Positions 3,962 to 47,765 of a stretch of 55,755 bases of DNA are shown one piece after another (within the stretch, counting starts at the first letter, position 1; each line of letters opens with the position of its first letter). Origin of the DNA: Chiloscyllium plagiosum (lineage: Eukaryota). The stretch spans positions 1,199,332 through 1,255,086 of the forward strand of contig NC_057718.1 in NCBI RefSeq assembly GCF_004010195.1, written 5' to 3'. Made by a program: the position numbers and the translations under genes. Below the pieces are notes generated by a model. That model was not told the DNA's origin. It made no database searches and was given only the letters and a program-made list of their open reading frames with translations.

Positions 3962-4380
3962 TGAGGAGAAAGTGAGGTCTGCAGATGCTGGAGATCAGAG
4001 CTGAAAATGTGTTGCTGGAAAAGCGCAGCAGGTCAGGCAGCATCCAGGGAACAGGAGAATCGACGTTTCGGGCATAGGCCCTTCTTCAGGAATGGGGAAA
4101 GTGTGTCCAGCAGGCTAAGATAAAAGGTAGGGAGGAGGGACTTGGGGGAGGGGCGTCGGAAATGTGATAGGTGGAAAGAGGTCAAGGTGAGGGTGATAGG
4201 TCAGACTGGGGTGGGGGCGGAGAGGTCGGGAAGAAGATTGCAGGTTAGGAAGGTGGTGCTGAATTTGATGGATTTGACTGAGACAAGGTGGGGGGAGGGG
4301 AAATGAGGAAACTGGTGAAATCCGAGTTCATCCCTTGTGGTTGGAGGGTTCCTAGGCGGAAGATGAGGCGCTCTTCCTCC
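3962..4380 (-). mobile_element. Penelope-like element 3' fragment with terminal repeat
   Basis: Reverse complement of the EEERLIFRLGTLQPQGMN segment and terminus seen at 13544-14075; inserted into a SINE tail. Confidence 0.8.
4058..4093 (-). ncRNA. Minimal hammerhead ribozyme motif
   Basis: Reverse complement reads ATTC-CTGAAGA-A-GGGC(CTAT)GCCC-GAAA-CGTC-GATT. Confidence 0.62.
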
Positions 4381-7455: not shown

Positions 7456-9419
7456 GGGGTGGTTGAGGACCTCAGTCTGTACTCACTGAAGTTTCAAAGT
7501 ATGAATGCAGAAGTGTACATAATGACCTTCATAATGCTGAATCTCATTATAACTTACAGAATACTGAGGGGCCTGTATGGAGCAGACAGATGTTTCCACT
7601 CGGAGGAGTGACCAGGGCAAGGGCACAGCCTCAGAGTGAAGGCCTGGCGTTTGAACTGAGATGAGGAGGAATTTCTTACAGCCAGATGGTGAATCTGCAT
7701 AACACATCGCTGCAGAAGGCTGTGCAGGCCAAGTTATTGAGGAACTTTACGACAGAGATAGATCAGTTTTTGATTTGTAAGGGGATCAAAGGTTACAGGG
7801 TGTAGGCAAGAGAATGAAATGGAGCAACATATTAGCCATAAGTGAATGCTGGAACAATCCCGATGGGCTGAATAGCCTAATTCTGCTCCTCCATCTTATG
7901 GCCTTATCGTTACCGATTGAAATTTCCTTGAAAACTCCAATAAATTAGTCAGACACAATTTCCCTTTCACAAAGCCATGTTGACTTTGCTTGATTAGATT
8001 ATAATTTTCAACTGTTCAACAAAGGTTCAACCATGTATTTGGAAACTATATAGTTGTAAATGTTTTAATGGTCATCCAGATTCCTGCTGTTTGGTGATAG
8101 TTGTGTGCAAGTGATTAACCGGGCCACCAGAGGCTGACACTCACACATGTCACTGTCAGGCTTTGTCAGGGGGACCCATCTTCTCCTATCCTCCAGCATT
8201 ATGGAGGTCATTATGTACACTTCTGCATTCACCCACACAGCTCTAATGGCTCTGACTGGAATCGAGTGAGCTTGAGCCCCAGATGTGTACAGTTTCATCT
8301 TAATGCGTTCCTCAACTTGCCCATTTTATAGAGTATTATTAAAAAGCTCTTAAAAGGCTCTTGTCTTTTTATCGACATTAGGTGCAAGGCACACACAGAT
8401 GGGGCAGCTCTTAGAGTATCTTAAAAAGGAAATTAGACTCATGGATTGTTTCCTCTGCTGATGGACAACATCCATTCAGCATCTACCTGACTCATTTCTC
8501 AAAGTTCTCAGTGTTTTCAGTTCAGTGTTATATTTAATGAAATGAGATTCGAGAAAAGGAAGATTGATTGAATCCAGTATACAGGAGGCTTGAGTGCCTT
8601 TCTGCTAAACAGCCAGACAGTCATGCACTTACACTCTAATTGAAGACTCACAGAGGTAGCCTTGTAGTACTCAGGTGGATCTGCCAGGCTTGTTCCCATC
8701 GGTGGGCTAACTCTGACTCCAAATGTATCTCTTCTGCCTAAATCCCAGCTTGTGCCCACTCCCAGGTTTTAAGGAGAAAGTTCTTTAAGGAAGGGAAGAT
8801 GTTCCAAATCAATATTAAGCACTCCATTTTACAGCAAGCCCTCAATGTGGTATAAAGTAAGCAAGTGAGTCGGTTCTAGATCACTGACCTGAATCTTCTG
8901 AGTGGACCGAGGACAGACACCTCACACAGATTTTTCATCCTCGTACACTGAGGGTTAGCAGGAAAGGGCAGAGTAAAGCCCCTGAAACAATTCATTGGCT
9001 AACTTCTGTGTTCTCTTTTGTCCCTATCAGATAGAGGATATCACAGCCCAATGTTTCCCAGTCACTCTGATCCCAAAGCCCCATATTCCACAGTCACACA
9101 AATCTCAGAGACTCGAGATCCCTCCTTCACCCTGGTCCAACAGTCTTCTATTCCTCATGTCATCCTGTTCCCCCAGTCACCCTAATTGCAGAGCCCCTAA
9201 TCTACAACACCCCATCAACCTGGTCCCACATTCCCCTTTCGCCACATCATCCTGTTTCCCCCAGTCTCTCTGGTCCCAGAACCACCTGAACATCTCTGTC
9301 ACTGGTCACATAGCTTTGTTCTCCCACTACCCTAGTCCAGCCTTTGTTCCTGGTTCAGTGTATGTTGTTTTCTGACCTTTATAGATTATTGTGAGATGGA
9401 AAACAATTTAGTTCCAGTA

Positions 9420-9904
9420 AGTGAAGAGGACAGGTGGCCTGTTGCGCTGTCACCGGAGAAAATCACAGACAAAAAGACAGGAGATGTGATCTTGTGTTGA
9501 CACCGCCTGTAATTGTCCAGCTAATTTGATGTTGATCTGTTGAAACGTTTCTGTGTAAATGCACACTGAAGCTTAAAATCAGCGTTTCATTGAGAGGAAA
9601 GGTTTGTAAATTAAAAACGGTGTCATCAGTGACCAATGAAGTTTTTGAAAAGTGTTAGGTTTTGAGAGGATGCTGTGAAATTTCCTGTGTGGAGAGGTGC
9701 TAATCCCCTGCACTGTGTAACCAGTGGAAAAGGTTCTGTTTACACATGCAACGTCTGTTAAAAGCTCTGATTCCTTTGGAGTGCTAGCTGTTTCAGATTT
9801 CCTACAATTATTGTCCTTGAAAAGGTTGATTTAATCGTGATGACGCGTTTCTTTGAAGTACAAATAGGAAGAATGGTATAAAAAGGCAGAGAGTTGCAGT
9901 TGAA
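9420..9904 (+). promoter_or_regulatory. Putative POMC proximal promoter
   Basis: TATAAAAA 9877-9884; half-CRE TGACG 9841-9845; Pitx-type TAATCC 9701-9706 directly after T-box-like AGGTGC; CCAAT 9633-9637; T-box-like TGACACC 9498-9504; E-box CAGGTG 9431-9436. The region is TE-free in an otherwise TE-saturated window. Confidence 0.65.
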
Positions 9905-9955
9905 GCAGATAAAGGGACAGAGCTTCCGCTAGAAGTCTCTTCACAACCAGAACAG
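9905..9955 (+). other. POMC: POMC non-coding exon 1 (start approximate)
   Basis: Lies about 28 nt after TATAAAAA in non-repetitive DNA and ends at a consensus donor CAG|GTAAGA at 9955/9956. This matches the conserved three-exon POMC layout with an untranslated exon 1. The TSS is inferred. Confidence 0.72.
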
Positions 9956-10159
9956 GTAAGAGAATCGGGACTGACCATGTATTTATTCATAATGGGGAAA
10001 GAAATTGGTTACTTGTTTAATAGTGACTAGCTTAAATACTCTGAAATTCTTACAGGTCTCTTATGTATCAGCATTTATTGCATAAGTCCTGGACATTTGT
10101 AAGATCATCCAGATATTCCTGTACTGACTTATCTCACCAATACTGCAGCACTGTCCCAG

Positions 10160-10644
10160 CCTCCTGTCCAGTCTCTCTACACCCCACACCCTTCTGTCCA
10201 GTCTCTCCGACACCCCACACCCTGCTGTCCAGTCTCTCCCACACCCCACACCCTCCTGTCCAGTCTCTCCTAACCCCACATCCCTGCTGTCCAGTCTCTC
10301 CTACACCCCACACCCTCCGGTCCAGTCTCTCCTACACCCCACACCCTCCTGTCCAGTCTCTCCCACACCCCACACCCTGCTGTCCAGTCTCTCCCACACC
10401 CCACACCCTCCTGTCCAGTCTCTCCTACACCCCACATCGCAGGTTAGGTGAATTGGCCATGCTAAATTGCCCGTAGTGTTAGGTAAGGGGTAAATGTAGG
10501 GGTATGGGTGGGTTACGCTTCGGCAGGTCGGTGTGGACTTGTTGGGCTGAAGGGCCTGTTTCCACACTGTAATCTAATCTAATCTAATCTAAACTCTACT
10601 GTCCAGTCTCTCCCACACTCCACACCCCACAGACTGCTGTCCAG
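10160..10644 (+). repeat. ~31-bp C-rich minisatellite (CTGTCCAGTCTCTCCCACACCCCACACCCTS), about 10 copies, interrupted by a SINE 3' fragment
   Basis: Unit starts at 10164, 10194, 10225, 10256, 10287 and onward to about 10437; the unit resumes at about 10597-10644. Confidence 0.92.
10439..10592 (+). mobile_element. HE1 SINE 3' half with (AATCT)n tail
   Basis: Matches 39300-39457 almost exactly. Confidence 0.88.
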
Positions 10645-11518
10645 ATTATTTTTAAATATATTTAATGTTTTACCGATTAATTAGAATTAAGGGGTAAGAC
10701 ATATTAGGAGACCCCCAAACCATAGTCTGCTTGTCTGTCTGTACATGGGAAGCTGGGCACATTAACTGGGCCGAGGAGTTGCATGCGTATAAGATGTGCA
10801 TTCAGTTGCAGTTCCTAGACGCCCGAGTTTCGGAGGTGGAGCAGCGTCTGAGGTCATTGAGCAACATTTCTGAGGTGGAGAGTATTGCAGATAGTGAGGT
10901 GGTCATACCGCAGACTCAGACTCCGCAGGAAGGGAATGGGTGATCACCAGGCAGAGCAGGAGGGCTACGCAGGCAGTACAGGAATCTCCTGTGGTTATTT
11001 CCCTGCAAAACACACATACCATTTTGGTTACTGTCGAGGGGAATGGCATCTCGGGGATAACAGTAACAGGCAAACTCTTGCACCATGGTTGGCTCTACTG
11101 CAGGGTGAGGGTGAAATCAGTATGCACATGGTATAGTTGTAGGGGATTCAATCATAAGGGAAGTGGATAGTCATTTCTGTGTCTGCAAACGAGTCCAGGA
11201 TGGTGTGTTGCCTCCCTTGTGCTCAGGTCCTGGATGTCTTGGGGCAGTCGCGAGACATTCTGAAGGGGGAGTTTGAACAACCAGCGATCGTGGTACATGT
11301 TGGTACTAACGACATTGGTTAAAAAGGATGAGATCCTAAAAGGATGAAACCCTTGAAATGTGGGCCTCAAATGTTGTTATCTCAGGATTACTGCCACAAG
11401 CTAGTCAGAGGAGAATCAGCAATATATATAGGATGAACATGTGGCTGAAACAATGGTGTGAGGGGAGGGTTTCAGGTATGTGGCACATTGAACCGGTTCT
11501 GGGGGAGATGGGACCTCT

Positions 11519-13543
11519 ACACCTGGGCAGGACTGGGACAGGTCACACCTGGGCAGGACTGGGACAGGTTACACCTGGGCAGGACTGGGACAGGTTACAC
11601 CTGGGCAGGACTGGGACAGGTTACACCTGGGCAGGACTGGGACAGGTTACACCTGGGCAGGACTGGGACAGGTTACACCTGGGCAGGACTGGGACAGGTT
11701 ACACCTGGGCAGGACTGGGACAGGTTACACCTGGGCAGGACTGGGACAGGTTACACCTGGGCAGGACTGGGACAGGTTACACCTGGGCAGGACTGGGACA
11801 GGTTACACCTGGGCAGGACTGGGACAGGTTACACCTGGGCAGGACTGGGACAGGTTACACCTGGGCAGGACTGGGACAGGTTACACCTGGGCAGGACTGG
11901 GACAGGTTACACCTGGGCAGGACTGGGACAGGTTACACCTGGGCAGGACTGGGACAGGTTACACCTGGGCAGGACTGGGACAGGTTACACCTGGGCAGGA
12001 CTGGGACAGGTCACACCTGGGCAGGACTGGGACAGGTCACACCTGGGCAGGACTGGGACAGGTCACACCTGGGCAGGACTGGGACAGGTCACACCTGGGC
12101 AGGACTGGGACAGGTCACACCTGGGCAGGACTGGGACAGGTCACACCTGGGCAGGACTGGGACAGGTCACACCTGGGCAGGACTGGGACAGGTCACACCT
12201 GGGCAGGACTGGGACAGGTCACACCTGGGCAGGACTGGGACAGGTTACACCTGGGCAGGACTGGGACAGGTCACACCTGGGCAGGACTGGGACAGGTCAC
12301 ACCTGGGCAGGACTGGGACAGGTCACACCTGGGCAGGACTGGGACAGGTCACACCTGGGCAGGACTGGGACAGGTCACACCTGGGCAGGACTGGGACAGG
12401 TCACACCTGGGCAGGACTGGGACAGGTCACACCTGGGCAGGACTGGGACAGGTCACACCTGGGCAGGACTGGGACAGGTCACACCTGGGCAGGACTGGGA
12501 CAGGTCACACCTGGGCAGGACTGGGACAGGTTACACCTGGGCAGGACTGGGACAGGTCACACCTGGGCAGGACTGGGACAGGTCACACCTGGGCAGGACT
12601 GGGACAGGTCACACCTGGGCAGGACTGGGACAGGTCACACCTGGGCAGGACTGGGACAGGTCACACCTGGGCAGGACTGGGACAGGTCACACCTGGGCAG
12701 GACTGGGACAGGTCACACCTGGGCAGGACTGGGACAGGTCACACCTGGGCAGGACTGGGACAGGTCACACCTGGGCAGGACTGGGACAGGTCACACCTGG
12801 GCAGGACTGGGACAGGTTACACCTGGGCAGGACTGGGACAGGTCACACCTGGGCAGGACTGGGACAGGTCACACCTGGGCAGGACTGGGACAGGTCACAC
12901 CTGGGCAGGACTGGGACAGGTCACACCTGGGCAGGACTGGGACAGGTCACACCTGGGCAGGACTGGGACAGGTCACACCTGGGCAGGACTGGGACAGGTC
13001 ACACCTGGGCAGGACTGGGACAGGTCACACCTGGGCAGGACTGGGACAGGTCACACCTGGGCAGGACTGGGACAGGTCACACCTGGGCAGGACTGGGACA
13101 GGTTACACCTGGGCAGGACTGGGACAGGTCACACCTGGGCAGGACTGGGACAGGTCACACCTGGGCAGGACTGGGACAGGTCACACCTGGGCAGGACTGG
13201 GACAGGTCACACCTGGGCAGGACTGGGACAGGTCACACCTGGGCAGGACTGGGACAGGTCACACCTGGGCAGGACTGGGACAGGTCACACCTGGGCAGGA
13301 CTGGGACAGGTCACACCTGGGCAGGACTGGGACAGGTCACACCTGGGCAGGACTGGGACAGGTCACACCTGGGCAGGACTGGGACAGGTTACACCTGGGC
13401 AGGACTGGGACAGGTCACACCTGGGCAGGACTGGGACAGGTCACACCTGGGCAGGACTGGGACAGGTCACACCTGGGCAGGACTGGGACAGGTCACACCT
13501 GGGCAGGACTGGGACAGGTCACACCTGGGCAGGACTGGGACAG
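11519..13543 (+). repeat. 26-bp minisatellite, about 78 copies, unit ACACCTGGGCAGGACTGGGACAGGT(C/T)
   Basis: Directly visible near-perfect tandem array with a single variable position per unit. Confidence 0.99.
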
Positions 13544-14075
13544 TTGTGGAGCGTTTCAGAGAACACCTCTGGGACACCCGGACCAACCAACCCAACCACC
13601 CTGTGGCTCAACATTTCAATTCCCCCTCCCACTCCACCAAGGATATGCAGGTCTTTGGACTCCTCCATCGCCAGACCACAACAACACGACGGTTGGAGGA
13701 AGAGCGCCTCATCTTCCGCCTAGGAACCCTCCAACCACAGGGGATGAACTCAGATTTCTCCAGTTTCCTCATTTCCCCTCCCCCCACCTTGTCTCAGTCA
13801 AATCCCTCAAACTCCCCACCGCCTTCCTAACCTGCAATCTTCTTCCTGACCTCTCCGCCCCCACCCCATTCCGGCCTATCACCCTCACCTTGACCTCCTT
13901 CCACCTATCGCATTTCCAACGCCCCTCCCCCAAGTCCCTCCTCCCTACCTTTTATCTTAGCCTGCTGGACACACTTTCCTCATTCCTGAAGAAGGGCTAA
14001 TGCCCGAAACGTCGATTCTCCTGCTCCTTGGATGCTGCCTGACCTGCTGCGCAGTTCCAGCAACACATTTTCAGC
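13544..14075 (+). mobile_element. Penelope-like element, GIY-YIG C-terminal part plus terminal repeat
   Basis: ERFREHLWDTRTNQPNHPVAQHFNSPSHS..RRLEEERLIFRLGTLQPQGMN, the R..E..H/N pattern of PLE GIY-YIG endonucleases. Confidence 0.85.
13982..14017 (+). ncRNA. Minimal hammerhead ribozyme motif
   Basis: ATTC-CTGAAGA-A-GGGC(TAAT)GCCC-GAAA-CGTC-GATT; stem I has one mismatch. Confidence 0.62.
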
Positions 14076-16426
14076 TAAGAACAAGAACAGGCAGGAAATG
14101 CTGCTGAAAACAGCAGGGGAGGTGTCTGAAAAACATGTATTTCAATGTGAAATGTATAATAGGCAACATAGATGAACTTAGAGTTTGGTTAGTACTTGAA
14201 ACTATGATATTATTGTGATTAAGGAGACTTAGAGTCATAGAGATGTGCAGCACGGAAATAGACCCTTCAGTCCAACTCGACCATGCCGACCAGATATCCT
14301 AATCTAATCTAGTCCCATTTGCCAGCACCCGGCCCATATCCCTCTAAACCCTTCCTATTCATATACCCATCCAGCTGCCTTTTAGTTATTGTAATTGTAC
14401 CAGCCTCCACCACTTCCTCTGGGAGCTCATTCCATACACGCACCACCCTCTGTGTGAAAAAGTTGCCCCTTAGGTCCCTTTTAAATCTTTCCCCTCTCAC
14501 CCTAACTCTTTGCCCTCTAGTTTTGGACTCCCCCACCGAGGGAAAAGACCTTGCCCCCTCATGATTTTACAAACCTCTATAGGTTATTTTAAAAATTTAA
14601 TCAAGAGACATATCTCAATAAAAATATAATCAAAAAAGAACCCACTCTATTCGCTATTGTAGATTTACAGTAAGGTTACATTTAAAAACAATGCACTTAT
14701 CTGTTCCTGTGCTGTGAGCTCTCCCACACAGGTTCCTCCAAGGTCAGCTGGGAATTTTGCTGTTTATTCATTTTTCGCAGATGCAGTTTGATGTCCAGAC
14801 ATAGTTGAACTCAAACAGGAAAGGCAGTGGGTGTGCAGATTCTGAAAGAGGTACAGGACTGGCAGCTGAATCCTCCGGGATTTAAATGTCTCAGATGTGA
14901 TAGAAAGGGATGTAAAAGGGAGTTGGAGAGTTGCATTACTGGTAAAGGATTATCTCGCAGCTATACTGACAGAGGATATATCAGAGGACCCGTGCAGTGA
15001 GACAATATGGAATAGGAAAGGTAAAATTATAATACTGGGGTATACTACAGGCTTCCAAACAGCCAGGGGAGGATAGAGGAGAGAATATGCAGACAGATTT
15101 TGGAAAGATGTAAAAATAGCAAGATTATTGTGGTGGATGATATTAACTTCCCACTTATTGACTGGGATTCACTTTGTGCTAGGGGTTTGGAATGGGGCAG
15201 AATTTGTAACAACCATTCAGGAGGGTTTCTTGACACAGTATGTAAACATATGGATGCTGTCTGACCTGCTGCGCTTTTCCAGCACCACATTTTTCAATTC
15301 TGATCTCCAGCATCTGCAGTCCCCACTTTCTTCCAGTATATAAACTGTCCAGCAAGGGAAGGGGTTTTGGGAAATGAGCCCGGCCAGGTGAGTGAAGTTC
15401 CAGTGGGGAGCATTTTGAGAGTAGTGACCATAATACAGTTGGCTTTAAGATACTCATGGATAAGGATAACAGCAGTCCTTGGGATAAGGTGTTAAATTGG
15501 AGGAAGGCAAGCTACAACCATATTAAGTAGGAACTGGAGAATTTTAAGTGGAGTCAATTGTTTGAGAGTAAATCCGCATTAGACATATGGGAATATTTCA
15601 CAAGGTAGTTGATAAAGGTTCAGGAGCAGCACGTTTCTACAAGAATGAAGGATAGGTATGGCATACTGCCAGGGGAGATGGTGGAAGCAGACACATTAGT
15701 AGCATTCAAGAAGCACCTGGAATACACCAATAGGAAGGGAATAGAGGGATACGGATCCTGTAAGTGAAGGTAGTTTTAGTATGGGAGGGCAAAATGTGTC
15801 ACTGCAGGCTTGGAGGGCCAAAGGGCCTGTTCCTGTGCTGTTTTGTGCTTTGCTCTGAGTTCTTTGTTCTTTGTCTCATTGCACTTCTCCCTTTCTCAAT
15901 CTATCACCATTCAGATGTAAACCAGTCTTCCTTTTTTGCTTTTAAAGTGGATAACCTCACATTTGTCAACATTATCCTGAATTTAGGCCACTCCCCCAGC
16001 CTGTCCAATCACACTGCAACATCTCAGCATCCTCCCACCTCGCTTTGTATCATTTGCAAACTTGGAGATAACACATTTAGTTCCCTCATCTAAATCACCT
16101 ACGTATATTTTATAAATATTATGGACAGGTTACATGCAGGAAGGATGTTCCTGATGTTAGTGAATCCAGAACCAGTGGTCATCATTTAAGGAGAATGGGA
16201 AAAACTTTCAGGACTGAGAGGAGAAATTTCTTCACTCAGAGAGTGGAATTCATTGCCAGAGAAAGTGGTTGACACCAAAATATTTAGCGTTTTTAAGAAG
16301 GAGGTAGATGTGGCACTTGTGGTGATTGAGCTTCAATGATCATCTTGCATCATAGTGAATGGTGGAGCAGGCTCAAGGAGCCAAATGTCCTACTCCTGCT
16401 CCTATCTTCTTTGTTTCTATTTTAAT

Positions 16427-17080: not shown

Positions 17081-17865
17081 ATGATAATTACAGGCCAGAA
17101 AGGCCATTAATCCATCCACAGACCCTGGCACCTCACCCCAACTAGAGAAACCAAAGATGTATTTCAAAGATTCTACAGCATCTGCATTCACTCTATCTGG
17201 CGGTTTATTCCTCTTCGATTAGTCTTTTTCTGCCATTTATTTTTACTTAAATCAATATCCACATTAAATTGGAATTTTAACCATCATATTTACCTTCATG
17301 TGGTCATCTCCCAGAGCGAAAAGCCCCACTCTCTTTCTCTGGCCATCGCTGTGGGGAATATCTAAGCTGTCAGGGATTTTAAAGCTATGGATAGCATCTA
17401 ATCAAAGTGGATGAAGGATGTGGACCGCTTTCAAATGATTCCAGAGGCAAGAAGGCTCCACTTGGGTAGCGTGTGGTTGATCAGGATAGGGCTTTTTCTG
17501 CCGTTGCCATTTACTTTAGTTCATGCTGTTATGTCGCAGTGGGATATGGTAAGAATATAGCCCCCAAAATATAGGCCCTTACCTCAGTCAGGACAGGGAT
17601 TGGATCTATGTAGTAAGAGTCATTCTTCAGTTAACTCTTAGCCAAATGAGCTAACTGCCATTTCCCATAACTCAGACTCTGACTTTCAGGGATTCCCTCA
17701 GATCTGCCCATCATAGTTAAGTCTCTTTCAGTGGCTGAGCAGAACTGAACACAATAGACAGGATGGGTCTGTAGCATGAGACAGTGTACTGGGGAAGGGT
17801 TTCTGTCTAATGTAGTTTTCTGTTTTCTTTCTGGAAAGAATTTCTGATCCTGAGACCTGACTATC

Positions 17866-17994
17866 ATGCAGCAGTCAACATGGAGAAGTATCCTGGTGAT
17901 GTTCAGCATGTCGTGGACTCTGACATCTGGCCAGCTGGGGGATTGCTGGGACCAAAGCAAGTGCAAGAAGCTGTTTTCAACTCCAAAAGTGATG
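17866..17994 (+). CDS. POMC: Proopiomelanocortin, first coding exon (exon 2): signal peptide and start of N-POMC, 43 aa
   Basis: MQQSTWRSILVMFSMSWTLTSGQLGDCWDQSKCKKLFSTPKVM has a hydrophobic leader and the C-W-x4-C pattern of N-POMC. It ends ATG|gtaagc (phase-0 donor at 17995). Probable acceptor is tgttttctttctggaaag| at 17838, giving 27 nt of 5'UTR. It joins in frame to ECIEACK of exon 3. Confidence 0.93.
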
Positions 17995-24100: not shown

Positions 24101-24780
24101 GAGAACCCAACACACTCTTTTGCAACTTAATGATGCTATTCCAATTTCTTGCAACATCCCCATAAACACACCCCTTGGCAAAAAAAAGGTAAATTCAAGC
24201 CCAGGTTCTCACAGGAGTGATGTGAGAGAGAGAGGATCTGCCAGGGATCATTTGCTGAAGCATGGATCCTCTGTCCCCACCAAACTAAAAAAATCCCAGA
24301 ACTGGGAGAATTGACCACTCCCCTTTCGTTGTGTAACTGTTCTAAAAAAACCTAAAGGCATTCCCTTATTGTTGACTTAGGCAGTCTCTGGTAGCCATAT
24401 CAGCACCTCTGCCTTTTACAACTCCTTTTGGAATAAAACAAGGACAACATAACCTTGTTGAAGGAGCAGCATTATCACATTTTCCAGGTTAACTATGTCT
24501 TTCCCATAACAAGGTGACTGAAACTGTACAGAATACTCTAAGTGTGGCCTCACTAATGACCTAAGCAGCTGTAGCAATCCTTGTACTCAATGCCTCGACT
24601 GATGAAGGCTAGCATTCTTCACAACTTTGTCTATCTCAGACTCTGCTTTTAACGAACTGTGTATGTGTATTCCTCAGTCCCTCTGTTCTACAACAGTCCT
24701 CATTTGGCTTGATTTTCCAAAAGTTGAAACTTTATTGCTGGAACAGCACAGCAGGTCAGGCAGCATCCAGGGAACAGGAG

Positions 24781-24816
24781 ATTCGACGTTTCGGGCACAG
24801 GCCCTTCTTCAGGAAT
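24781..24816 (-). ncRNA. Minimal hammerhead ribozyme motif
   Basis: Reverse complement reads ATTC-CTGAAGA-A-GGGC(CTGT)GCCC-GAAA-CGTC-GAAT. Confidence 0.7.
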
Positions 24817-25680
24817 GAGCAGAGAGTGTTCAGCAGGAGAAGATAAAAGGTAGGGAGGAGGGACTTGGAGGAGGGGCGTTGGAAATGTGATTGACCTGGG
24901 GTGTGCAGTGAGAGAGGGACTCACTGAAATCTTTGTAGAGAGAGGCAGAGAGCTTCTGCAAGGAAGGCATCCTTGTAAGAGGATTCGCAGTAGGTTGAAA
25001 TCTTCGAGGAGAAAGTGAGATCTGCAGATGCTGGAGATCAAAGTTGAAACTTTATTGCTGGAACAGCACAGCAGGTCAGGCAGCATCCANNNNNNNNNNN
25101 NNNNNNNNNNNNNNNNNNNNNNNNNNNNNNNNNNNNNNNNNNNNNNNNNNNNNNNNNNNNNNNNNNNNNNNNNNNNNNNNNNNNNNNNNNNNNNNNNNNN
25201 NNNNNNNNNNNNNNNNNNNNNNNNNNNNNNNNNNNNNNNNNNNNNNNNNNNNNNNNNNNNNNNNNNNNNNNNNNNNNCGGATGAACCAACCCAACCACCC
25301 TGTAGCACAGCATTTCAACTCCCCCTCCCACTCCACCGAGGATATGCAGGTCATTGGACTCATCCACCGCCAAACCACAACAACGCGACGGTCGGAGGGG
25401 GAGCGTCTTATCTTCCGACTGGGAACCCTCCACCCGCAGGGGATGAACTTGGGCTTCACCAGTTTCTTCATCCCCCCTCCCCCCACCTTGTCTCAGGCGG
25501 ATCCCTCCCGCCCGGCACCGCCTTCCTGCCCTGCAGTCTTCTTCTTGGCCTCTCCGCCTCCACCCTACTCCGACCTATCACCTTCACCTTGACCTCTTTC
25601 CACCTATCACATTTCCAACGCCCCTCCTCCAAGTCCCTCCTCCCTACCTTTTATCTTCTCCTGCTGAACACTCTCTGCTC

Positions 25681-25716
25681 ATTCCTGAAGATGGGCCTGT
25701 GCCCGAAACGTCGAAT
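25681..25716 (+). ncRNA. Minimal type I hammerhead ribozyme motif (Penelope terminal repeat)
   Basis: ATTC-CTGAAGA-T-GGGC(CTGT)GCCC-GAAA-CGTC-GAAT: conserved core, 4-bp stem II, palindromic ACGT stem III, GUC cleavage triplet, 4-bp stem I. Confidence 0.7.
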
Positions 25717-26367
25717 CTCCTGTTCCCTGGATGCTGCCTGACCTGCTGTGCTGTTCCAGCAATAAAGTTTCAACTTTGATCTCCAGCATCTGCAGACCTC
25801 ACTTTCTCCTCTTTGATTTTCCAAAATGCAACACCTGACACTTGTCTGTATTGAATTGCTCTTACCAACCCTCAGCCCACTTCCCTATCTGATCAAGATC
25901 CCTCTGGAATTTTTGATAACTTTCCTCGCTATCGATACCTCCTAATTATGAATCATCTGCAAACTTACTAATCCTTCTTGATGAAGGGCTTTTGCCCAAA
26001 ATGTTGATTTTCCTGCTCGTCAGATGCTGCCTGACCTGCTGTGCTTTTCCAGCGCAATTCTAATCTAGAAACTTACTAATTATGCCTTGTACATCCACAT
26101 CCAGATTATGTATGAAAATAACAAATAACAAAGGTCCCAGCACCTTCCTTGTGGCACAGCGCTAGTAACTGGGCTCCAGTCCAAGAAACAACCTTCAACC
26201 ATCATCCTTTGCTTCCTACCATCAAGCCAATTTTGAATCTAATTAGCTAGCTCTGCCTGGATTCCATGCGACCTAACCTTCACGATTAGCCTGTGATATG
26301 GGACTTTATCAAAGGCCTTACTAAAGTCTATACAGACAATATCCATTGCTTTCCACTCACCTGTCCT

Positions 26368-35042: not shown

Positions 35043-37174
35043 AGCTCTTGCTGTCTGCCTTAATATTACTTGCAAGTTTACCCTCAAATTCTTTTTCAGT
35101 CATTTTTTGGTAGCTTTTAAAACTCTCTTAATCCTCTTGCTTATTATTAATCTTTACATATTTAATGTGTTTTTTTTTAAAAAAATCATCCTTATACAAT
35201 TCTTAATTTCCCTGGTTAACCATGGTTGGCTTATACCCTTTCTAAAATCCTTCTTCCTCATTGGAATATGTCTTTTTTGAACGCTATGAACTATTTTCTT
35301 AAACATCTACCATAATGTCTCAACTGACTTTGCTGCTTGACTTCTTTCCCAGTCCACTTTAGCCAGCTGTGCCACCATTCCTTTGTAATTACCTTTATTT
35401 AAGATGCACAACTTCCTTCCTCTCAAACTGAATGCTAAATTGCACTATGCCATGGTCAGAGTTTTAGAGGAGATCTTTTTCATTAATATTTATTAAACCT
35501 GCCTCATTACACATCACACCACAGACAAAATAGTCTGATCTCACAGTGGATCCACAATACATTGTTCTCGGACATGGTCCTGAACATTCCTGAACACACT
35601 GGATGAATTCTTCCTAATGGCTTCCTCTGCCAATCTGACTGTCTCAATCTACAAAGACATGAAGATTAAAATCACACATGATTAATGAACTGCATTTCTC
35701 ACACACTCTCATTATCTCCTGATGTATTCTCTGTCCCACCATATAGCTACTGTTTAGGGGCCTATAGATTACTCATACCAGTGTCTTCTTTCCTATTTTA
35801 TTTCTTAACCTCTAACCATATGGATTTTATGTCTTTCAAGATCATTTCTTGCTATAATTTTTAACCTATTCAGTACCAACAATGCTACCTCACTATTTTT
35901 TATTTCCTGTCTGTACCTGAATATTTACTTCTCATCTTTGGTCTACTTGTAAACATGTCTCTGTTATGGCTATAAGATTATATTACTTAGTCCATATTTA
36001 TGCTGATTATTCAATAATTTTGTTCCAAATACTCTGTGCATTCAACAGCCATTAATTTTGCCTTTTTGACCACTTTTTCCCCTTTATATTCTGTTTACTA
36101 CTGTTTTTCTACATTATACACTGTCACTTCTTGTTCCACTCCAGGTGTCATTGTCCAAATAGCTGCCCTGTAATGCTGCCTTATCCTCTTGCTTTGAAAG
36201 CCCATGTTTCCCTCAACTAAACCCACCCATAAGTTCTACATTTACTCCTTTATCTATCTCATTTTCTCAATGAATTGGAGTAAAGATTCTGGTTAATCCA
36301 AGATGGAGGACAGGAAATAATTGTATCTGTAAGAGCTGTTCCTTTTTTGAGGTATTTTCAGTGTTGGAGCTGATTTCCTCAAATTCTAAGAGCAGTAATT
36401 ACTGTTTTATAAAAGCCATTGCATTGTTTTAGAACTTTAGGGGAAAATGATCAAAGTAACAGCAATTTAAAAAGCAGAAAGAGTGACAAAGCAGGGAGCA
36501 CATGGCAGCTGAAACAAATGGAGCAGTAAACCTGCACAGCTGTCTGACTAGGCAGTGGACCTTCACTGCTGACTGACTCTGCTGTTTAGTTTCAAGTATC
36601 TTTAGTATCTTCAAGTATATTTCTTCCTTGCTCCTTTCGCCTCTTAATTATTTTGCTTATTTTTGAATGCTATTGGTGTCCTGTACTGTGGAGACTGATA
36701 CAAAGAGCACATTCAAAAGTTTGAATGGCTTCAATTTCTGCTCATATTTCACACAGCCACATACGCCCTTCAGGGATCTTTGGATATTCATTCCAAGGTC
36801 TCTGCCTCTCGACCGGTGTCAATATCAACAATTTATAGAGGACTCCATTGTCTTGCTAACCTTCTCTAAATACATTACTTTTGTCCGTTAGGTCCATTGA
36901 TATCTTCCTGAAATCTTCAGATCTTTTCCTCATTATCAACCACATGGTCAATTTCTGAATTGTCTGCAAACTTATTAGTTATTTCTCCTATGTTGGACCA
37001 CATACCATTAATAGAAACCACAAAAAGCAGGAGACCCAATATATGCCTTACAGAACCCAATGGATACTGCCCTCCAGTCACAAAATCACTCATCAACCAA
37101 AATTCCTTCTTGCTTGACTAGTACATGGAACAATATTGTGGCAGCTGTTCCAGAAACTTGGTTAAGAGAAGGCC

Positions 37175-37750
37175 TGGGGAGACTGGGCGCCTCCTAGCAG
37201 AGCGCTTTAGGGAACATCTCCGAGACACCCGCACCAATCAACCAAACCGCCCCGTGGCTCAAAATTTCAACTCCCCCTCCCACTCTGCTGAGGACATGGA
37301 GGTGCTGGGCCTCCTCCACCCCCGCTCCCTCACCACCAGACGCCTGGAGGAAGAACGCCTCAATTCCGCCTCGGAACACTTCAACCCCAGGGCACCAATG
37401 TGGATTTTAACAGTTTCCTCATTTCCCCTTCCCCACCTCACCCTAGTTCCAAACTTCCAGCTCAGCACTGCCCCCATGACTTGTCCGGACTTGTCCTACC
37501 TGCCTATCTCCTTTTCCACCTATCCACTCCACCCTCTCCTCCCTGACTTATCACCTTCATCTCCTTCCCCACTGACCTATTGTACTCTATGCTACTCTCT
37601 CCCCACCCCCACCCTCCTCTAGCTTATCTCTCCACGCTTCAGGCTCTCTGCCTTTATTCCTGATGAAGGGCTTTTGCCCGAAACGTCGATTTTGCCTGTC
37701 CTCGGATGCTGCCTGAATTGCTGTGCTCTTCCAGCACCACTGATCCAGAA
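37175..37750 (+). mobile_element. Penelope-like element, GIY-YIG fragment plus terminal repeat
   Basis: GETGRLLAERFREHLRDTRTNQPNRPVAQNFNSPSHS (G-T-R..R..EH motif). Confidence 0.87.
37656..37691 (+). ncRNA. Minimal hammerhead ribozyme motif
   Basis: ATTC-CTGATGA-A-GGGC(TTTT)GCCC-GAAA-CGTC-GATT. Confidence 0.65.
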
Positions 37751-37759
37751 TAAGAGAAG

Positions 37760-39850
37760 GACTGGACTGGCAGCTCAATGTTCAACAGTTTAAATGTTTC
37801 AGGTTGGATAGACAGGGATGGAATGGGGGGGGAGGGAGTTAAGGTGAGAATCAAGAGTAGACTTCTTGCAGGGTTCATCCAGCAAGACAATATTGGTAGA
37901 AGTTAGGAATAAGAAAGGTGCTATCACGATTATGGAATTATATTCTTGGCTTCCCATTAGGCAGCAGGAGATAGAGGAACAGAAATATAGACAGGACATA
38001 GAAAATGTAAAAACAACAGTGTTGTTGTAGTGGCTTATTTTAATTCCTCCAATATTCACTGAGACTCCCTTAATACCAGGGATGTAGATGGGGTAGAATT
38101 TGTTAGACGCATCCAGGAAAAATTCCTGAAACAACATATGGATAGTCCAACAGGGAAGGAGCCATATTAGCCATATTGGGCTAGGTGATCAAAGTTTCAG
38201 AGGGATAGCATTTTGGGAATAGTGGTCATAATTCCATTAGGTCTCGGATAGTTATGGAAAAAGAGAAGATTGCTTCTTGGGTGAAAGTGCTAATATGGGG
38301 GCGGGTTAATTATGACATTATGAGGCAGTAACTGGAAAAATTGGATTGGGGCCAGCTGTTTGAAGATAAATCCACATCTGACATGTCAGAATCCTTTAAA
38401 AGCCAGTTGACCAGAGTTCAGGACTTACATGTTCCTCTGAGGATGAAAGATAAAGATGGCAAGATTTGAGAATCTTGGGTGCTGAGAGATCTAAGTTTAG
38501 TTAAAAAGAAAATGGAAGCATATGTAAGGTTTAGGAAACTGAAATCAAACCAGGTACTTGAGTATAAAGGAAGCAGAAAAGAATGTAAAAAACGAAATTA
38601 GGGGGGTAGAAGGAACCATGAAATATCTTTGGCAAATTGGATTAAGGAGAATCCCAAGGCATTTCATATGTATGTTAGGAGTAAAAGGGTAATTAGGGAA
38701 GGACAAAGGAGGGAATTTATGTGTGGAGCCAGAGGAGGTGGATGAGGTTCTCAATGAGTCCTTTGCATCGGTGTTCACCAAGGAGAAGGACATGGGTGAT
38801 GATGAATTTAGATAAGGGCTTGTTGACATTAAGGAGTAAGTGTTGAGTGTGTTGAAAAATATTAAGATAGATAAATCCCCAGGGCCTGATTGGATCTATC
38901 CCAAAATAATGAAGGAGGCAAGGGAGGAGATTTGTGGGGCCTTGACAGAGATCTTTGTGTCCTCTTTAACCACAGGTGAGTTCCCAAAAGACTGGGGCGT
39001 AGCCAATATTGTTCCTTTGTTCTTGAAGAGCAATAAAGATAATCCAGGAAATTATAGGCCAGTGAGCCTCACATCATTGCGAGGGAAATTATTGGAGATG
39101 ATTTTTAGGGACAAGATTGACTTGCATTTGTGGGCGGCACGGTGGCACAGTGGTTAGCACTGCTGCCTCGCAGCGCCAGAGACCCGGGTTCAATTCCCGC
39201 CTCAGGCGACTGACTGTGTGGAGTTTGCACGTTCTCCCCGTGTCTGCATGGGTTTCCTCCGGGTGCTCCGGTTTCCTCCCACACTCCAAAGATGTGCAAG
39301 TCAGGTGAATTGGCCATGCTAAATTGCCCGTAGTGTTAGGTAAAGGGGTAAATGTAGGGGTATGGGTGGGTTACGCTTCGGCGGGTCGGTGTGGACTTGT
39401 TGGGCCGAAGGGCCTGTTTCCACACTGTAAGTAATCTAATCTAATCTAATCTAATCTAAAAATAGACTTATTAGGAATAGTCAGCATGAATTTATGCAGA
39501 GGAGTTTAAAAATGTGGTGCTGGAAAAAACACAACAGGCCAGGCAGCATCCGAGGAGCAGGAGAATTGACGTTTCGGGCATAAGCCCTTAAACGTTGATT
39601 TTCCTGCTCTTCGGATGCTGCCTGGCCTGCTTGTGTTTTTCCAGCACCACATTTTTCAACTCCGGTACTCCAGCATCTGCAGTCCTCACCTTCTCCTTTA
39701 TGCAGAGGAGGCCTTATCTCACAATAATATCAAGGTTTTTGAGGAAGTGATGAAATTGATTAATGAGGGTTAGGCAGTAGATGGTGTTTACATTACCTTA
39801 CTGAAGTATTTGACAAAGTCCCTCATGATAGGCTGGTCCAGAAAGTCAAT
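37760..39850 (+). mobile_element. Decayed CR1 ORF2 hosting an HE1 SINE and a Penelope hairpin (about 39505-39698)
   Basis: KSPGPDWIYPKI and NYRPVSLTS; the coding sequence resumes after each insert. Confidence 0.82.
39132..39457 (+). mobile_element. HE1-type SINE, full length, young-looking
   Basis: A box TGGCACAGTGG, B box GGTTCAATTCC, CpGs retained, (AATCT)n tail. Confidence 0.9.
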
Positions 39851-46943: not shown

Positions 46944-47765
46944 GAATGTATTGAAGCCTGCAAAGTGGACAAGACCCTCGAATCTCCAATCTATCCTGGA
47001 AATGGCCACCTGCAGCCAATTGAAGAAAGCATCAGGAATTATGTTATGGGCCATTTCCGCTGGAATAAATTTGGGAAAAAAAGAGGCAATAACACTGAGA
47101 TTTCAGACAACAAACGAGAAGATGAACCTGTTCTGGCATTCCTGAATAACCTCCCTGCTATAGAGTCCCAGACCTCTCAGATAGAAGGTGAGGAGATGGA
47201 AATTCCATTTCCTAGGGAGGATGATAAGAGATCCTACTCTATGGAACATTTTCGCTGGGGGAAGCCAATGGGCAGGAAGAAGAGGCCTATTAAAGTCTAC
47301 CCAAATAGCTTTGATGATGATTCATTGGAGAACATGAGTCCTGAACTGAAGCGTGAAGCATCTGTTGATTTTGACTACCCAGTAAAGCCTACTGAAGTAG
47401 GTGAAGAGGAGATGCTGGAAGATCTCAAGAAGAAAGAGAAGAAGAATTACAAAATGAACCATTTCAGGTGGGGCAGGGGACCACAGAGTTTAGGTCCTGA
47501 CGGTATGCATCTCCAGCCATTGCAGTTTCTAAACACTGAAGATGTGCGCCAGGAAAACATGGACAATGGCTTCCCTGAACAAGAGGCGAAAAAAGATGAG
47601 GAAGATTACAATTTTGGCCACTTCCGATGGAGTGTACCACTGAAAGACAAGCGTTACGGAGGCTTTATGAAGTCTTGGGATGAGAGAGATCAAAAGCCAC
47701 TTCTGACTCTCTTCAGGAATGTCATTGTCAAAGATGACCATGAGAAGAAGGCTGAAAATCAATAG
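46944..47765 (+). CDS. POMC: Proopiomelanocortin, exon 3 CDS (273 aa plus stop; full precursor 316 aa)
   Basis: Acceptor ttgttcttcacag|GAA. The translation contains four HFRW melanocortin cores, SYSMEHFRWGKP (ACTH/alpha-MSH) and KR-YGGFM (beta-endorphin), and ends at TAG 47763-47765. Confidence 0.99.
   Translation, partial: ECIEACKVDKTLESPIYPGNGHLQPIEESIRNYVMGHFRWNKFGKKRGNNTEISDNKREDEPVLAFLNNLPAIESQTSQIEGEEMEIPFPREDDKRSYSMEHFRWGKPMGRKKRPIKVYPNSFDDDSLENMSPELKREASVDFDYPVKPTEVGEEEMLEDLKKKEKKNYKMNHFRWGRGPQSLGPDGMHLQPLQFLNTEDVRQENMDNGFPEQEAKKDEEDYNFGHFRWSVPLKDKRYGGFMKSWDERDQKPLLTLFRNVIVKDDHEKKAENQ
47037..47072 (+). other. gamma-MSH peptide (NYVMGHFRWNKF, followed by G-KKR)
   Basis: YVMGHFRW core in the N-terminal region; the trailing G plus basic residues form an amidation/cleavage signal. 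Confidence 0.9.
47232..47348 (+). other. ACTH(1-39); alpha-MSH is 47232-47270
   Basis: KR-SYSMEHFRWGKPMGRKKRPIKVYPNSFDDDSLENMSPEL-KR, exactly 39 residues between dibasic sites. Confidence 0.97.
47436..47471 (+). other. delta-MSH (EKKNYKMNHFRW-G-R), chondrichthyan-specific
   Basis: Additional HFRW core located between ACTH and beta-MSH, preceded by KKK and followed by GR. Confidence 0.9.
47595..47648 (+). other. beta-MSH (DEEDYNFGHFRWSVPLKD)
   Basis: KK-...FGHFRWSVPL...-KR immediately before beta-endorphin; FGHFRWSVPL is the shark-type sequence. Confidence 0.93.
47655..47762 (+). other. beta-endorphin (36 aa to the stop, internal KK near the C-terminus)
   Basis: YGGFMKSWDERDQKPLLTLFRNVIVKDDHEKKAENQ with a Met-enkephalin core. 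Confidence 0.96.

What the first reader, a model, noticed from the sequence alone, without database searches (positions are those of the whole stretch)
11519..13543. Intron-1 minisatellite is an array of 55 perfect T-box half-sites next to the POMC promoter
Seen: across each unit junction the C variant reads CAGGTCACACCTG. This overlaps a nuclear-receptor half-site (AGGTCA), the consensus T-box half-site (TCACACCT) and an E-box (CACCTG). Of the 77 variable positions, 55 are C and 22 are T. The T breaks both AGGTCA and TCACACCT but leaves the E-box. The array begins about 1.6 kb downstream of the inferred TSS. Established: mammalian pituitary POMC transcription depends on the T-box factor Tpit/TBX19 (TCACACC-type element), NR4A receptors (AAAGGTCA-type sites) and bHLH factors. 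Inference: the VNTR could act as a copy-number- and variant-tunable enhancer, silencer or factor sink for POMC. The match may be chance, since the unit is TE-derived, and the NR4A site lacks its 5' A-run.
Basis: partly seen in the sequence, partly recalled or inferred. Interest (0 to 1): 0.72.

Follow-up and report, generated by a model that had tools for sequence, protein, structure and literature searches.

The report
LINE-born minisatellite in shark POMC intron
A 2-kb tandem repeat in the first intron of a shark's stress-hormone precursor gene grew out of a dead retrotransposon and carries a T-box-type DNA motif in most copies, but a related species lacks it, so the motif is most likely a by-product and not a built-in regulator.

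Summary
The counts hold: 77.9 copies of a 26-bp unit at 11519-13543, 55 C and 22 T of 77 variable sites, upstream of POMC exon 2. The unit is the catalytic D-x-x-H loop of a decayed CR1-type LINE ORF1 esterase: T units read DRLHLGRTGT where relatives read DGLHLNxxGT. One T>C change, 1 of 78 possible, makes the T-box half-site. The array ends at a 5'-truncated Penelope-like insert. In 4 runs laid on the left flank, organism B's orthologous contig holds one partial unit, no T-box site and no array; organism C's runs into the array at about 26-30 times single-copy depth; 3 raw reads of this species confirm real units but disagree with the assembled variant order. The array has no Pitx site, no NBRE and no T-box dimer geometry; the inferred promoter has its own Pitx-type site and NBRE. 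Best reading: an ordinary TE-derived minisatellite with an incidental motif; '55' is unverified. A regulatory effect is not excluded (about 12% for a T-box-driven one), since homotypic motif-cluster repeats can be enhancers.

The parts
9373..9380 (-). Exact NBRE octamer upstream of the inferred promoter
   Evidence: Only AAAGGTCA outside the array in the window; NBRE sequence from PMC7226830 passages
9498..9504 (+). T-box-like heptamer (1 mismatch to TCACACC) in the inferred promoter; a second on the - strand at 9619-9625
   Evidence: weak, since 162 such 6-of-7 matches occur outside the array
9695..9706 (+). Pitx-type site (TAATCC at 9701), 9 of 12 letters like the Pitx side of the rat Tpit/Pitx element
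   Evidence: rat element from PMC5686559 passages; 17 such 9-of-12 matches in the window, so suggestive only
9877..9955 (+). TATA box and inferred non-coding exon 1 (about 9905-9955), donor GT at 9956
   Evidence: inference, no RNA laid
10160..10436 (.). Second, unrelated 31-bp minisatellite (9 copies, 92% matches)
10710..11539 (+). Decayed ORF1 of a CR1-type LINE (SGNH esterase), ending W-D-L-Y and then, out of frame, H-L-G-R-T-G-T; its last 21 bases are the first partial unit
   Evidence: tblastn of 22 relatives, E down to 1e-25 in the rows printed; relative P0122 matches the ZfL2-1 ORF1 esterase 4C1B at E 9e-26; orthologous in organisms B and C
11519..13543 (+). 26-bp minisatellite, 77.9 copies; 55 C units (T-box half-site, AGGTCA) and 22 T units; CACCTG in all; 0 CpG; 11-unit higher-order period in its 3' three quarters
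   Evidence: units and left junction seen in raw reads of run X19 and in contigs of X14
13544..14076 (+). 5'-truncated retroelement tail, probably Penelope-like (C-terminal part of a GIY-YIG-type ORF plus 3' end), joined to the last unit
   Evidence: 70-94% identical copies at 3999-4380(-), 25278-25775 and 37200-37740; GIY-YIG lead, score 0.91, family on 12% of cluster members, for the 37-kb copy; no Pfam hit
14077..14230 (+). LINE sequence resumes (end of ORF1 region / start of ORF2 endonuclease), so host LINE bases are missing at the insertion
   Evidence: Read by eye from the translations against the LINE copy at 996-1330; not tested with a profile
17839..17994 (+). POMC exon 2 (ATG 17866, signal peptide, start of NPP)
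   Evidence: its translation equals the N-terminus of P0001
46944..47765 (+). POMC exon 3 with four MSH cores and beta-endorphin

Best explanation
A selectively near-neutral, transposon-derived minisatellite. A CR1-type LINE decayed in the POMC 5' intron (shown). 26 bp of its esterase D-x-x-H-L-G-R-T-G-T codons, bounded by short GGAC repeats, were duplicated by microhomology-mediated slippage or template switching (inferred), possibly while a Penelope-like element was being joined at that spot (inferred; its 5' end sits on the last unit). The G-rich, strand-asymmetric unit, which holds 9 bases of the human minisatellite core, then expanded and is homogenised by slippage and unequal exchange, including an 11-unit block (inferred). 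One T>C transition (Leu TTA to Ser TCA; direction inferred, about 65%) created the overlapping AGGTCA/TCACACCT match and drifted to a majority of units. T-box or E-box proteins would probably bind naked units in vitro, but POMC control rests on the promoter, and the array is dispensable.
For: Left flank is LINE ORF1 esterase. 19 of 22 relatives show D-G-x-H-L in this place; T units read DRLHLGRTGT and match three other LINE copies in the window at 17-18 of 30 nt in codon register. In 3 of 3 contig runs, a contig with a joint 11467>11518 carries a 22-letter side, read as other LINE copies holding these bases once (table 5). Only 1 of 78 single changes to the T unit makes TCACACCT. Organism B: contig 17 fits 10650-11539 (39 differences, 0 gaps), then runs 155 letters unlike the window; depth 0 over 11549-11570. 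No Pitx site or NBRE in the array; both lie near the TATA. TE-born minisatellites are common: about 7276 in human (PMC9659126 passages). Core motif from PMC9069542 passages.
Against: The motif is rare per unit (0.05%); with 13 TRF rows in the window the chance of an exact half-site in some array is about 0.7%, and 3% for TCACACC, so the coincidence at a Tpit target needs the scan's look-elsewhere effect. The array is shared with organism C (flank 6.1% diverged; about 26-30 times single-copy depth), so it is old. The motif-bearing variant is the majority. The array has no CpG, so methylation cannot mask it directly. None of the 22 protein relatives has the exact HLGRTG subfamily, and the host copy lacks its own D-G-L codons in A, B and C, so the source of the unit's 5-base linker (LINE D-G-L codons or the Penelope-like join) is unresolved. 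Absence in B rests on one run of contigs, which show presence better than absence.
Confidence: 0.74

Rival explanations
1. Co-opted T-box enhancer: Tbx19 monomers load on dozens of half-sites 1.6 kb into the gene and loop to Pitx at the promoter; C/T ratio and copy number tune POMC.
For: 55 exact half-sites, none elsewhere in the window. Repeats with 26-61 homotypic motifs can be enhancers (PMC13373173, abstract and section 13). 6.1% of 2672 tested human VNTRs associate with expression, including a coding VNTR in POMC (PMC8024321 passages). Array shared with organism C.
Against: No adjacent Pitx site; TBX19 alone is weak. Brachyury binds a half-site 20-fold more weakly than the palindrome, and TBX1 did not bind one at all (PMC4010391 passages). 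The 26-bp period is about 2.5 helical turns, unlike palindromic or abutting dimer sites (inference). Absent in organism B. Only 2 MORC3-restricted repeats of some 53 analysed had genes activated nearby.
Confidence: 0.1
2. Repressive or sink element: the invariant CACCTG in all 78 units recruits ZEB/Snail/E-proteins, or the motif cluster draws MORC3/DAXX-type closing, and slightly dampens POMC or slows elongation, independent of the C/T variant.
For: 78 CACCTG copies. Large motif clusters are closed by MORC3 in human cells. ZEB proteins bind bipartite CACCT(G) sites some tens of bases apart (recalled, not checked here). G4Hunter score 0.66 is only modest.
Against: No data on chromatin. CACCTG is simply the His-Leu codon pair and occurs in 1.9% of background 26-mers. 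Absent in organism B. Single-strand folding is not exceptional (z -1.21).
Confidence: 0.1
3. Array real but its length and variant order are inflated or smoothed by assembly (can hold together with the best explanation).
For: Exact 11-unit periodicity (P 8e-5) and no other mutation in 2 kb. X1 contig depth over the units is only 2.5-3.6 times single copy. 3 array reads in X19 against 5.6-7.6 expected for 78 units; point estimate 30-41 units, 95% range 5-124 (genome size 3.5-4.8 Gb assumed from recall). The junction read does not show T at the second variable site. The window has 3 N gaps.
Against: 3 reads do not reject 78 units (P 0.05-0.2). Block duplication gives the same periodicity. Contig depth is stated by the tool to be no copy number. 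Allelic difference explains the junction read. Organism C shows a high-copy array independently.
Confidence: 0.3

Closest known systems
Transposon-derived minisatellites (Alu-, MaLR-, B1-derived; CR1-containing HinfI repeat of chicken); PMC9659126, passages
   Same: Tandem array grown from a short stretch inside a decayed retroelement; G-rich unit with part of the human minisatellite core; one interspersed variant.
   Different: Source is the catalytic D-x-x-H loop of a CR1-type ORF1 esterase in a shark, at a nested Penelope-like junction. The passages read list no such case (0 occurrences of 'shark' or 'Penelope' in that review).
Mammalian Pomc Tpit/Pitx element (TCACACC next to a Pitx site); PMC5686559, PMC8111286, PMC7226830, PMC11933146, passages
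   Same: TCACACC heptamer, in the POMC locus.
   Different: No Pitx site beside any copy; intronic, multi-copy, TE-derived; missing in a related species.
MORC3-repressed tandem-repeat enhancers (IFNB1-MRE, 45 PU.1 sites); PMC13373173, abstract and section 13
   Same: Dozens of homotypic TF motifs in a tandem repeat near a gene regulated by that TF class.
   Different: No accessibility, binding or activity data here; motif class differs; the cluster is not kept in organism B.
Human eVNTRs, including the 9-bp coding VNTR of POMC; PMC8024321, passages
   Same: A tandem repeat in POMC whose length might track expression.
   Different: Unrelated sequence and position; the human one has a measured expression association.

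Membership tests
TE-derived minisatellite (VNTR) | Head-to-tail array of a unit of tens of bases | tested here: met
   26-bp period, 77.9 copies, 99% matches; units seen in raw reads
TE-derived minisatellite (VNTR) | Unit homologous to the flanking element | tested here: met
   Unit continues the LINE ORF1 motif after WDLY; organism B holds 21 bases of it once
TE-derived minisatellite (VNTR) | Copy number varies between individuals | tested here: inconclusive
   Differs between species (B about 1 partial unit, C about 26-30 by depth); within species only 3 reads and one low-depth contig set
CR1-clade ORF1 SGNH esterase (left flank) | GDS, G-x-N-D and D-x-x-H blocks, homology to ZfL2-1 esterase | tested here: met
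   GDS and GTND read in the flank; relative P0122 vs 4C1B E 9e-26; direct fragment vs 4C1B only E 0.13; catalytic D279/H282 from PMC3905857 passages
Penelope-like element (right flank) | GIY-YIG endonuclease | tested here: inconclusive
   Atlas lead 0.91, family on 12% of members; Pfam 0 hits for 2 of 2 fragments; the name rests partly on recall
Tpit/Pitx composite element | T-box half-site TCACACC | tested here: met
   55 copies in the assembly
Tpit/Pitx composite element | Adjacent Pitx (TAAGCC/TAATCC) site | tested here: not met
   0 in 11451-13610; nearest at 11390(-) and 14952(-)
Tpit/Pitx composite element | Tbx19 binding and activation | not testable with these tools
   Needs EMSA, CUT&RUN or reporter
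NR4A monomer site (NBRE) | AAAGGTCA octamer | tested here: not met
   0 in the array; definition from PMC7226830
T-box dimer sites | Palindrome or abutting direct repeat of half-sites | tested here: not met
   Half-sites are head-to-tail, 18 bases apart; site types from PMC4010391
MORC3-type motif-cluster repeat enhancer | Large homotypic motif cluster in a tandem repeat | tested here: met
   55 T-box and 78 E-box motifs in the assembly; true number unverified
MORC3-type motif-cluster repeat enhancer | Restricted accessibility and enhancer activity on release | not testable with these tools
   Needs ATAC-seq and perturbation
MORC3-type motif-cluster repeat enhancer | Motif accumulation kept across related species | tested here: inconclusive
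   Array in organism C (variant not visible in the rows shown), absent in organism B

The most novel reading that the evidence does not exclude
One transition in a LINE esterase codon, multiplied by minisatellite turnover, built a cluster of dozens of T-box half-sites in the intron of the main Tpit target. In the sharks that carry it, it works as a length- and variant-tunable POMC enhancer (or a repressed one), while a related species without it offers a natural control for stress-axis and pigmentation output.
Probability: 0.12. Interest if true: 0.65.

Novelty: new member of a known kind. Interest (0 to 1): 0.24.

Why it matters
As it stands it is a clear, traceable case of a minisatellite born from LINE coding sequence at a nested insertion, with present and absent states in close relatives, and a possible marker in POMC. 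If it proved regulatory, it would show a lineage-specific POMC enhancer made from TE protein-coding DNA by one mutation plus repeat amplification, testable across three related sharks.

Tried and rejected
No whole genome is held for this window, so genome-wide counts of the unit could not be made. Pattern scans: 0 matches in viral contigs; 9 in metagenome contigs, none of 9 with LINE or array context, so dropped. Homolog searches with the frameshifted flank fragment failed: 0 of 4 candidates scored, and 2 weak hits that are unrelated repeat proteins. Pfam found nothing in the 3 TE fragments among 5 proteins scanned. A PDB search with the array-spanning frame gave only a chance hit. The 743-886-aa ORFs over the array are rejected as genes: the 78-nt cycle simply has no stop on the + strand. 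A NurRE-like arm in the promoter, seen by eye, failed the scan (0 matches of at least 9 of 11 in 9300-9960), and the whole rat Tpit/Pitx 20-mer has no good match near the promoter (best 14 of 20, elsewhere). Hairpin stability is not unusual. Decoy splice donors are unlikely: the CAG/GT in each unit lacks the intronic consensus (by eye). A wholly artefactual array is rejected by raw reads and by organism C. Which of B or C is closer to A is unresolved (4.4% vs 6.1%, Fisher P 0.17); the low word share of C (0.06) is not used as evidence. Paper searches for a shark POMC promoter/Tpit study (1 unrelated paper) and for a shark POMC intron repeat (12 of 62 listed, none on this) found nothing; most subscription papers are outside the library. 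No supplements were read. Earlier-finding look-ups near the place, by sequence and by words returned 0.

Full report
Observation. Tandem Repeats Finder gives a 26-bp array at 11519-13543 with 77.9 copies. Decomposition gives 55 C units, 22 T units and one partial unit, with no other difference in 2,025 bases; the order is C, T17, C9, T, (C10, T) four times, C5. TCACACCT and AGGTCA occur 55 times and CACCTG 78 times in the array; TCACACCT occurs nowhere else in the window, and the NBRE octamer is absent from the array. The gene is POMC: exon 3 (46944-47765) carries four MSH cores and an opioid domain and is 100% identical to a protein that its source names bamboo-shark pomc a. Exon 2 has its ATG at 17866.

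Exon 1 is inferred. Of 5 TATA matches between 3200 and 17800, 2 have a strong donor behind them; 9877/9953 lies in unique sequence and 15337/15385 among repeat remnants. A Pitx-type TAATCC (9701), a CRE half-site (9841) and an exact NBRE (9373-9380) lie upstream of the first. No RNA was laid. I put 'intron 1, 1.6 kb from the start' at about 85%.

What the unit is. The left flank, 10710-11539, is a decayed SGNH-esterase ORF1 of a CR1-type LINE. Twenty-two relatives were found with another copy in the window; in the tblastn rows printed for 6 of them they align along the flank with E down to 1e-25, and one of them matches the solved ZfL2-1 ORF1 esterase at E 9e-26, whose catalytic residues include D279 and H282 (PMC3905857, passages). 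In 19 of the 22, W-D-L-Y/F-x-x is followed by D-G-x-H-L-N-x-x-(G)-T. The window reads W-D-L-Y and enters the array, whose T unit reads D-R-L-H-L-G-R-T-G-T and whose C unit reads D-R-S-H-L-G-R-T-G-T. The T unit matches three other LINE copies of the window at 17-18 of 30 nt in codon register. So the E-box is the His-Leu codon pair, and the T-box half-site is one transition away from the Leu codon: 1 of 78 single changes to the T unit creates it.

The right end joins a 5'-truncated element with three or more copies in the window at 70-94% identity, probably Penelope-like (GIY-YIG lead only; no Pfam hit). The copy at 37.17 kb begins with CCTGGGGAGACTGGG, close to the unit's CCTGGGCAGGACTGGG, which suggests a microhomology join. 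The unit's 5-base linker could come from the LINE's D-G-L codons or from this join; both give T as the older state, but the first unit is C in the window, so polarity is inferred at about 65%.

Relatives. A search with 10650-11600 listed 21 runs of three coded organisms; 4 were laid on 10650-11570, which ends two units into the array. Organism B (X6): one 1,096-nt contig fits 10650-11539 with 39 differences and no gap, then continues 155 letters unlike the window, and depth over 11549-11570 is 0. B thus shows one partial unit, without T-box site or AGGTCA. Organism C (X14): a 559-nt contig fits 10983-11557 to its last letter, into the second unit, and summed depth over the units is 923-1,055 against 35 for that contig, about 26-30-fold, while depth on multi-copy LINE peaks scales alike in all three organisms (246, 412, 257-fold). 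C carries an array. Its variant could not be read, since 97 rows of differences were not shown. Organism A: X19 raw reads (1,934 million letters, about 4% of the run) gave 3 reads over the units, one spanning the left junction from 11499; all stop at 11569, so none has T at the second variable site as the window does. Three reads compare with 5.6-7.6 expected for 78 units (P 0.05-0.2) and imply about 30-41 units, range 5-124, if the genome is 3.5-4.8 Gb (size recalled). X1 contigs show only 2.5-3.6-fold depth there. The array is real and older than the A-C split, but its length and order are not verified, and B does without it. Contigs show presence better than absence, and B was one run of 5 listed.

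Chance. An exact half-site occurs in 0.055% of 52,603 background 26-mers read as tandem units and 0.048% of 200,000 shuffles; the triple overlap in about 1e-5; some POMC-type site in 8.4%. With 13 TRF rows in the window, that is 0.7% for the exact 8-mer, 3% for TCACACC and 68% for any POMC-type site. The match is uncommon for one locus but expected in a scan of many windows. Two earlier notes on this genome describe other intronic arrays of 56-63 units (unchecked), which suggests such arrays are frequent here.

Regulatory fit. The rat element is TCACACC followed by a Pitx site (PMC5686559, passages), and TBX19 or PITX1 alone activates weakly (PMC11933146, passages). The array has no Pitx site within 60 bp. 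Brachyury binds a half-site 20-fold more weakly than its palindrome, and TBX1 prefers abutting repeats (PMC4010391, passages); here half-sites are 18 bases apart. NR4A monomers need AAAGGTCA (PMC7226830, passages). In favour of keeping the question open: tandem repeats with up to 61 homotypic motifs are closed by MORC3, and two of them act as enhancers on release, though most had no effect on nearby genes (PMC13373173, abstract and section 13); 6.1% of 2,672 human VNTRs associate with expression, one in POMC (PMC8024321, passages); human POMC has an intragenic second promoter/enhancer (PMC8372657, abstract); and the array has no CpG.

Mechanism. Shown: LINE origin of the unit's sequence, the nested insertion, presence in A and C, absence in the B contig. 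Inferred: a 26-bp microhomology-bounded duplication; expansion and homogenisation helped by a G-rich asymmetric unit holding 9 bases of the human minisatellite core (PMC9069542, passages); an 11-unit block amplification or assembler loop (P 8e-5 under random placement); drift of the C variant. Most likely effect on POMC: none that matters (0.74). Rivals: T-box enhancer (0.10), E-box or chromatin repression (0.10); inflated length (0.3, compatible with the others).

Novelty. TE-derived minisatellites are a known kind (PMC9659126, passages). Two paper searches found no report of this array; the library lacks most subscription papers. Verdict: new member of a known kind, interest 0.24; novel case probability 0.12, interest 0.65 if true.

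Noticed in passing
window 10160-10436 and 10598-10644: A second minisatellite (31 bp, 9 copies) 200 bp into the inferred intron 1, interrupted by a short repeat tail ending in (TAATC)n; its reverse strand shares GACTGGACAG with the GACTGGGACAG of the 26-bp unit.
   Followed up: no
window 37162-37760: Another copy of the Penelope-like tail, inserted in a LINE with a 10-bp target duplication (TAAGAGAAGG) and cut at its 5' end within about 20 bases of where the 13544 copy begins.
   Followed up: partly
window 11340-14000: All three + frames stay open across the array, giving spurious 743-886-aa ORFs fused to LINE and Penelope-like remnants; a trap for gene annotation.
   Followed up: yes
window 24722-25775: Two inverted tails of the same Penelope-like family flank the 188-N gap at 25090-25277.
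   Followed up: no
window 9300-9960: The inferred POMC promoter holds an exact NBRE, a Pitx-type TAATCC, two TGACACC heptamers and a CRE half-site; a shark counterpart of the mammalian composite elements has not been mapped in the papers searched.
   Followed up: partly
window 17995-46943: POMC intron 2 is about 29 kb and largely LINE/SINE remnants.
   Followed up: no
P0123, P0128: Proteins labelled as bacterial SGNH/GDSL hydrolases are 80% identical to the shark LINE ORF1 fragment, which suggests vertebrate DNA contamination in those records.
   Followed up: no
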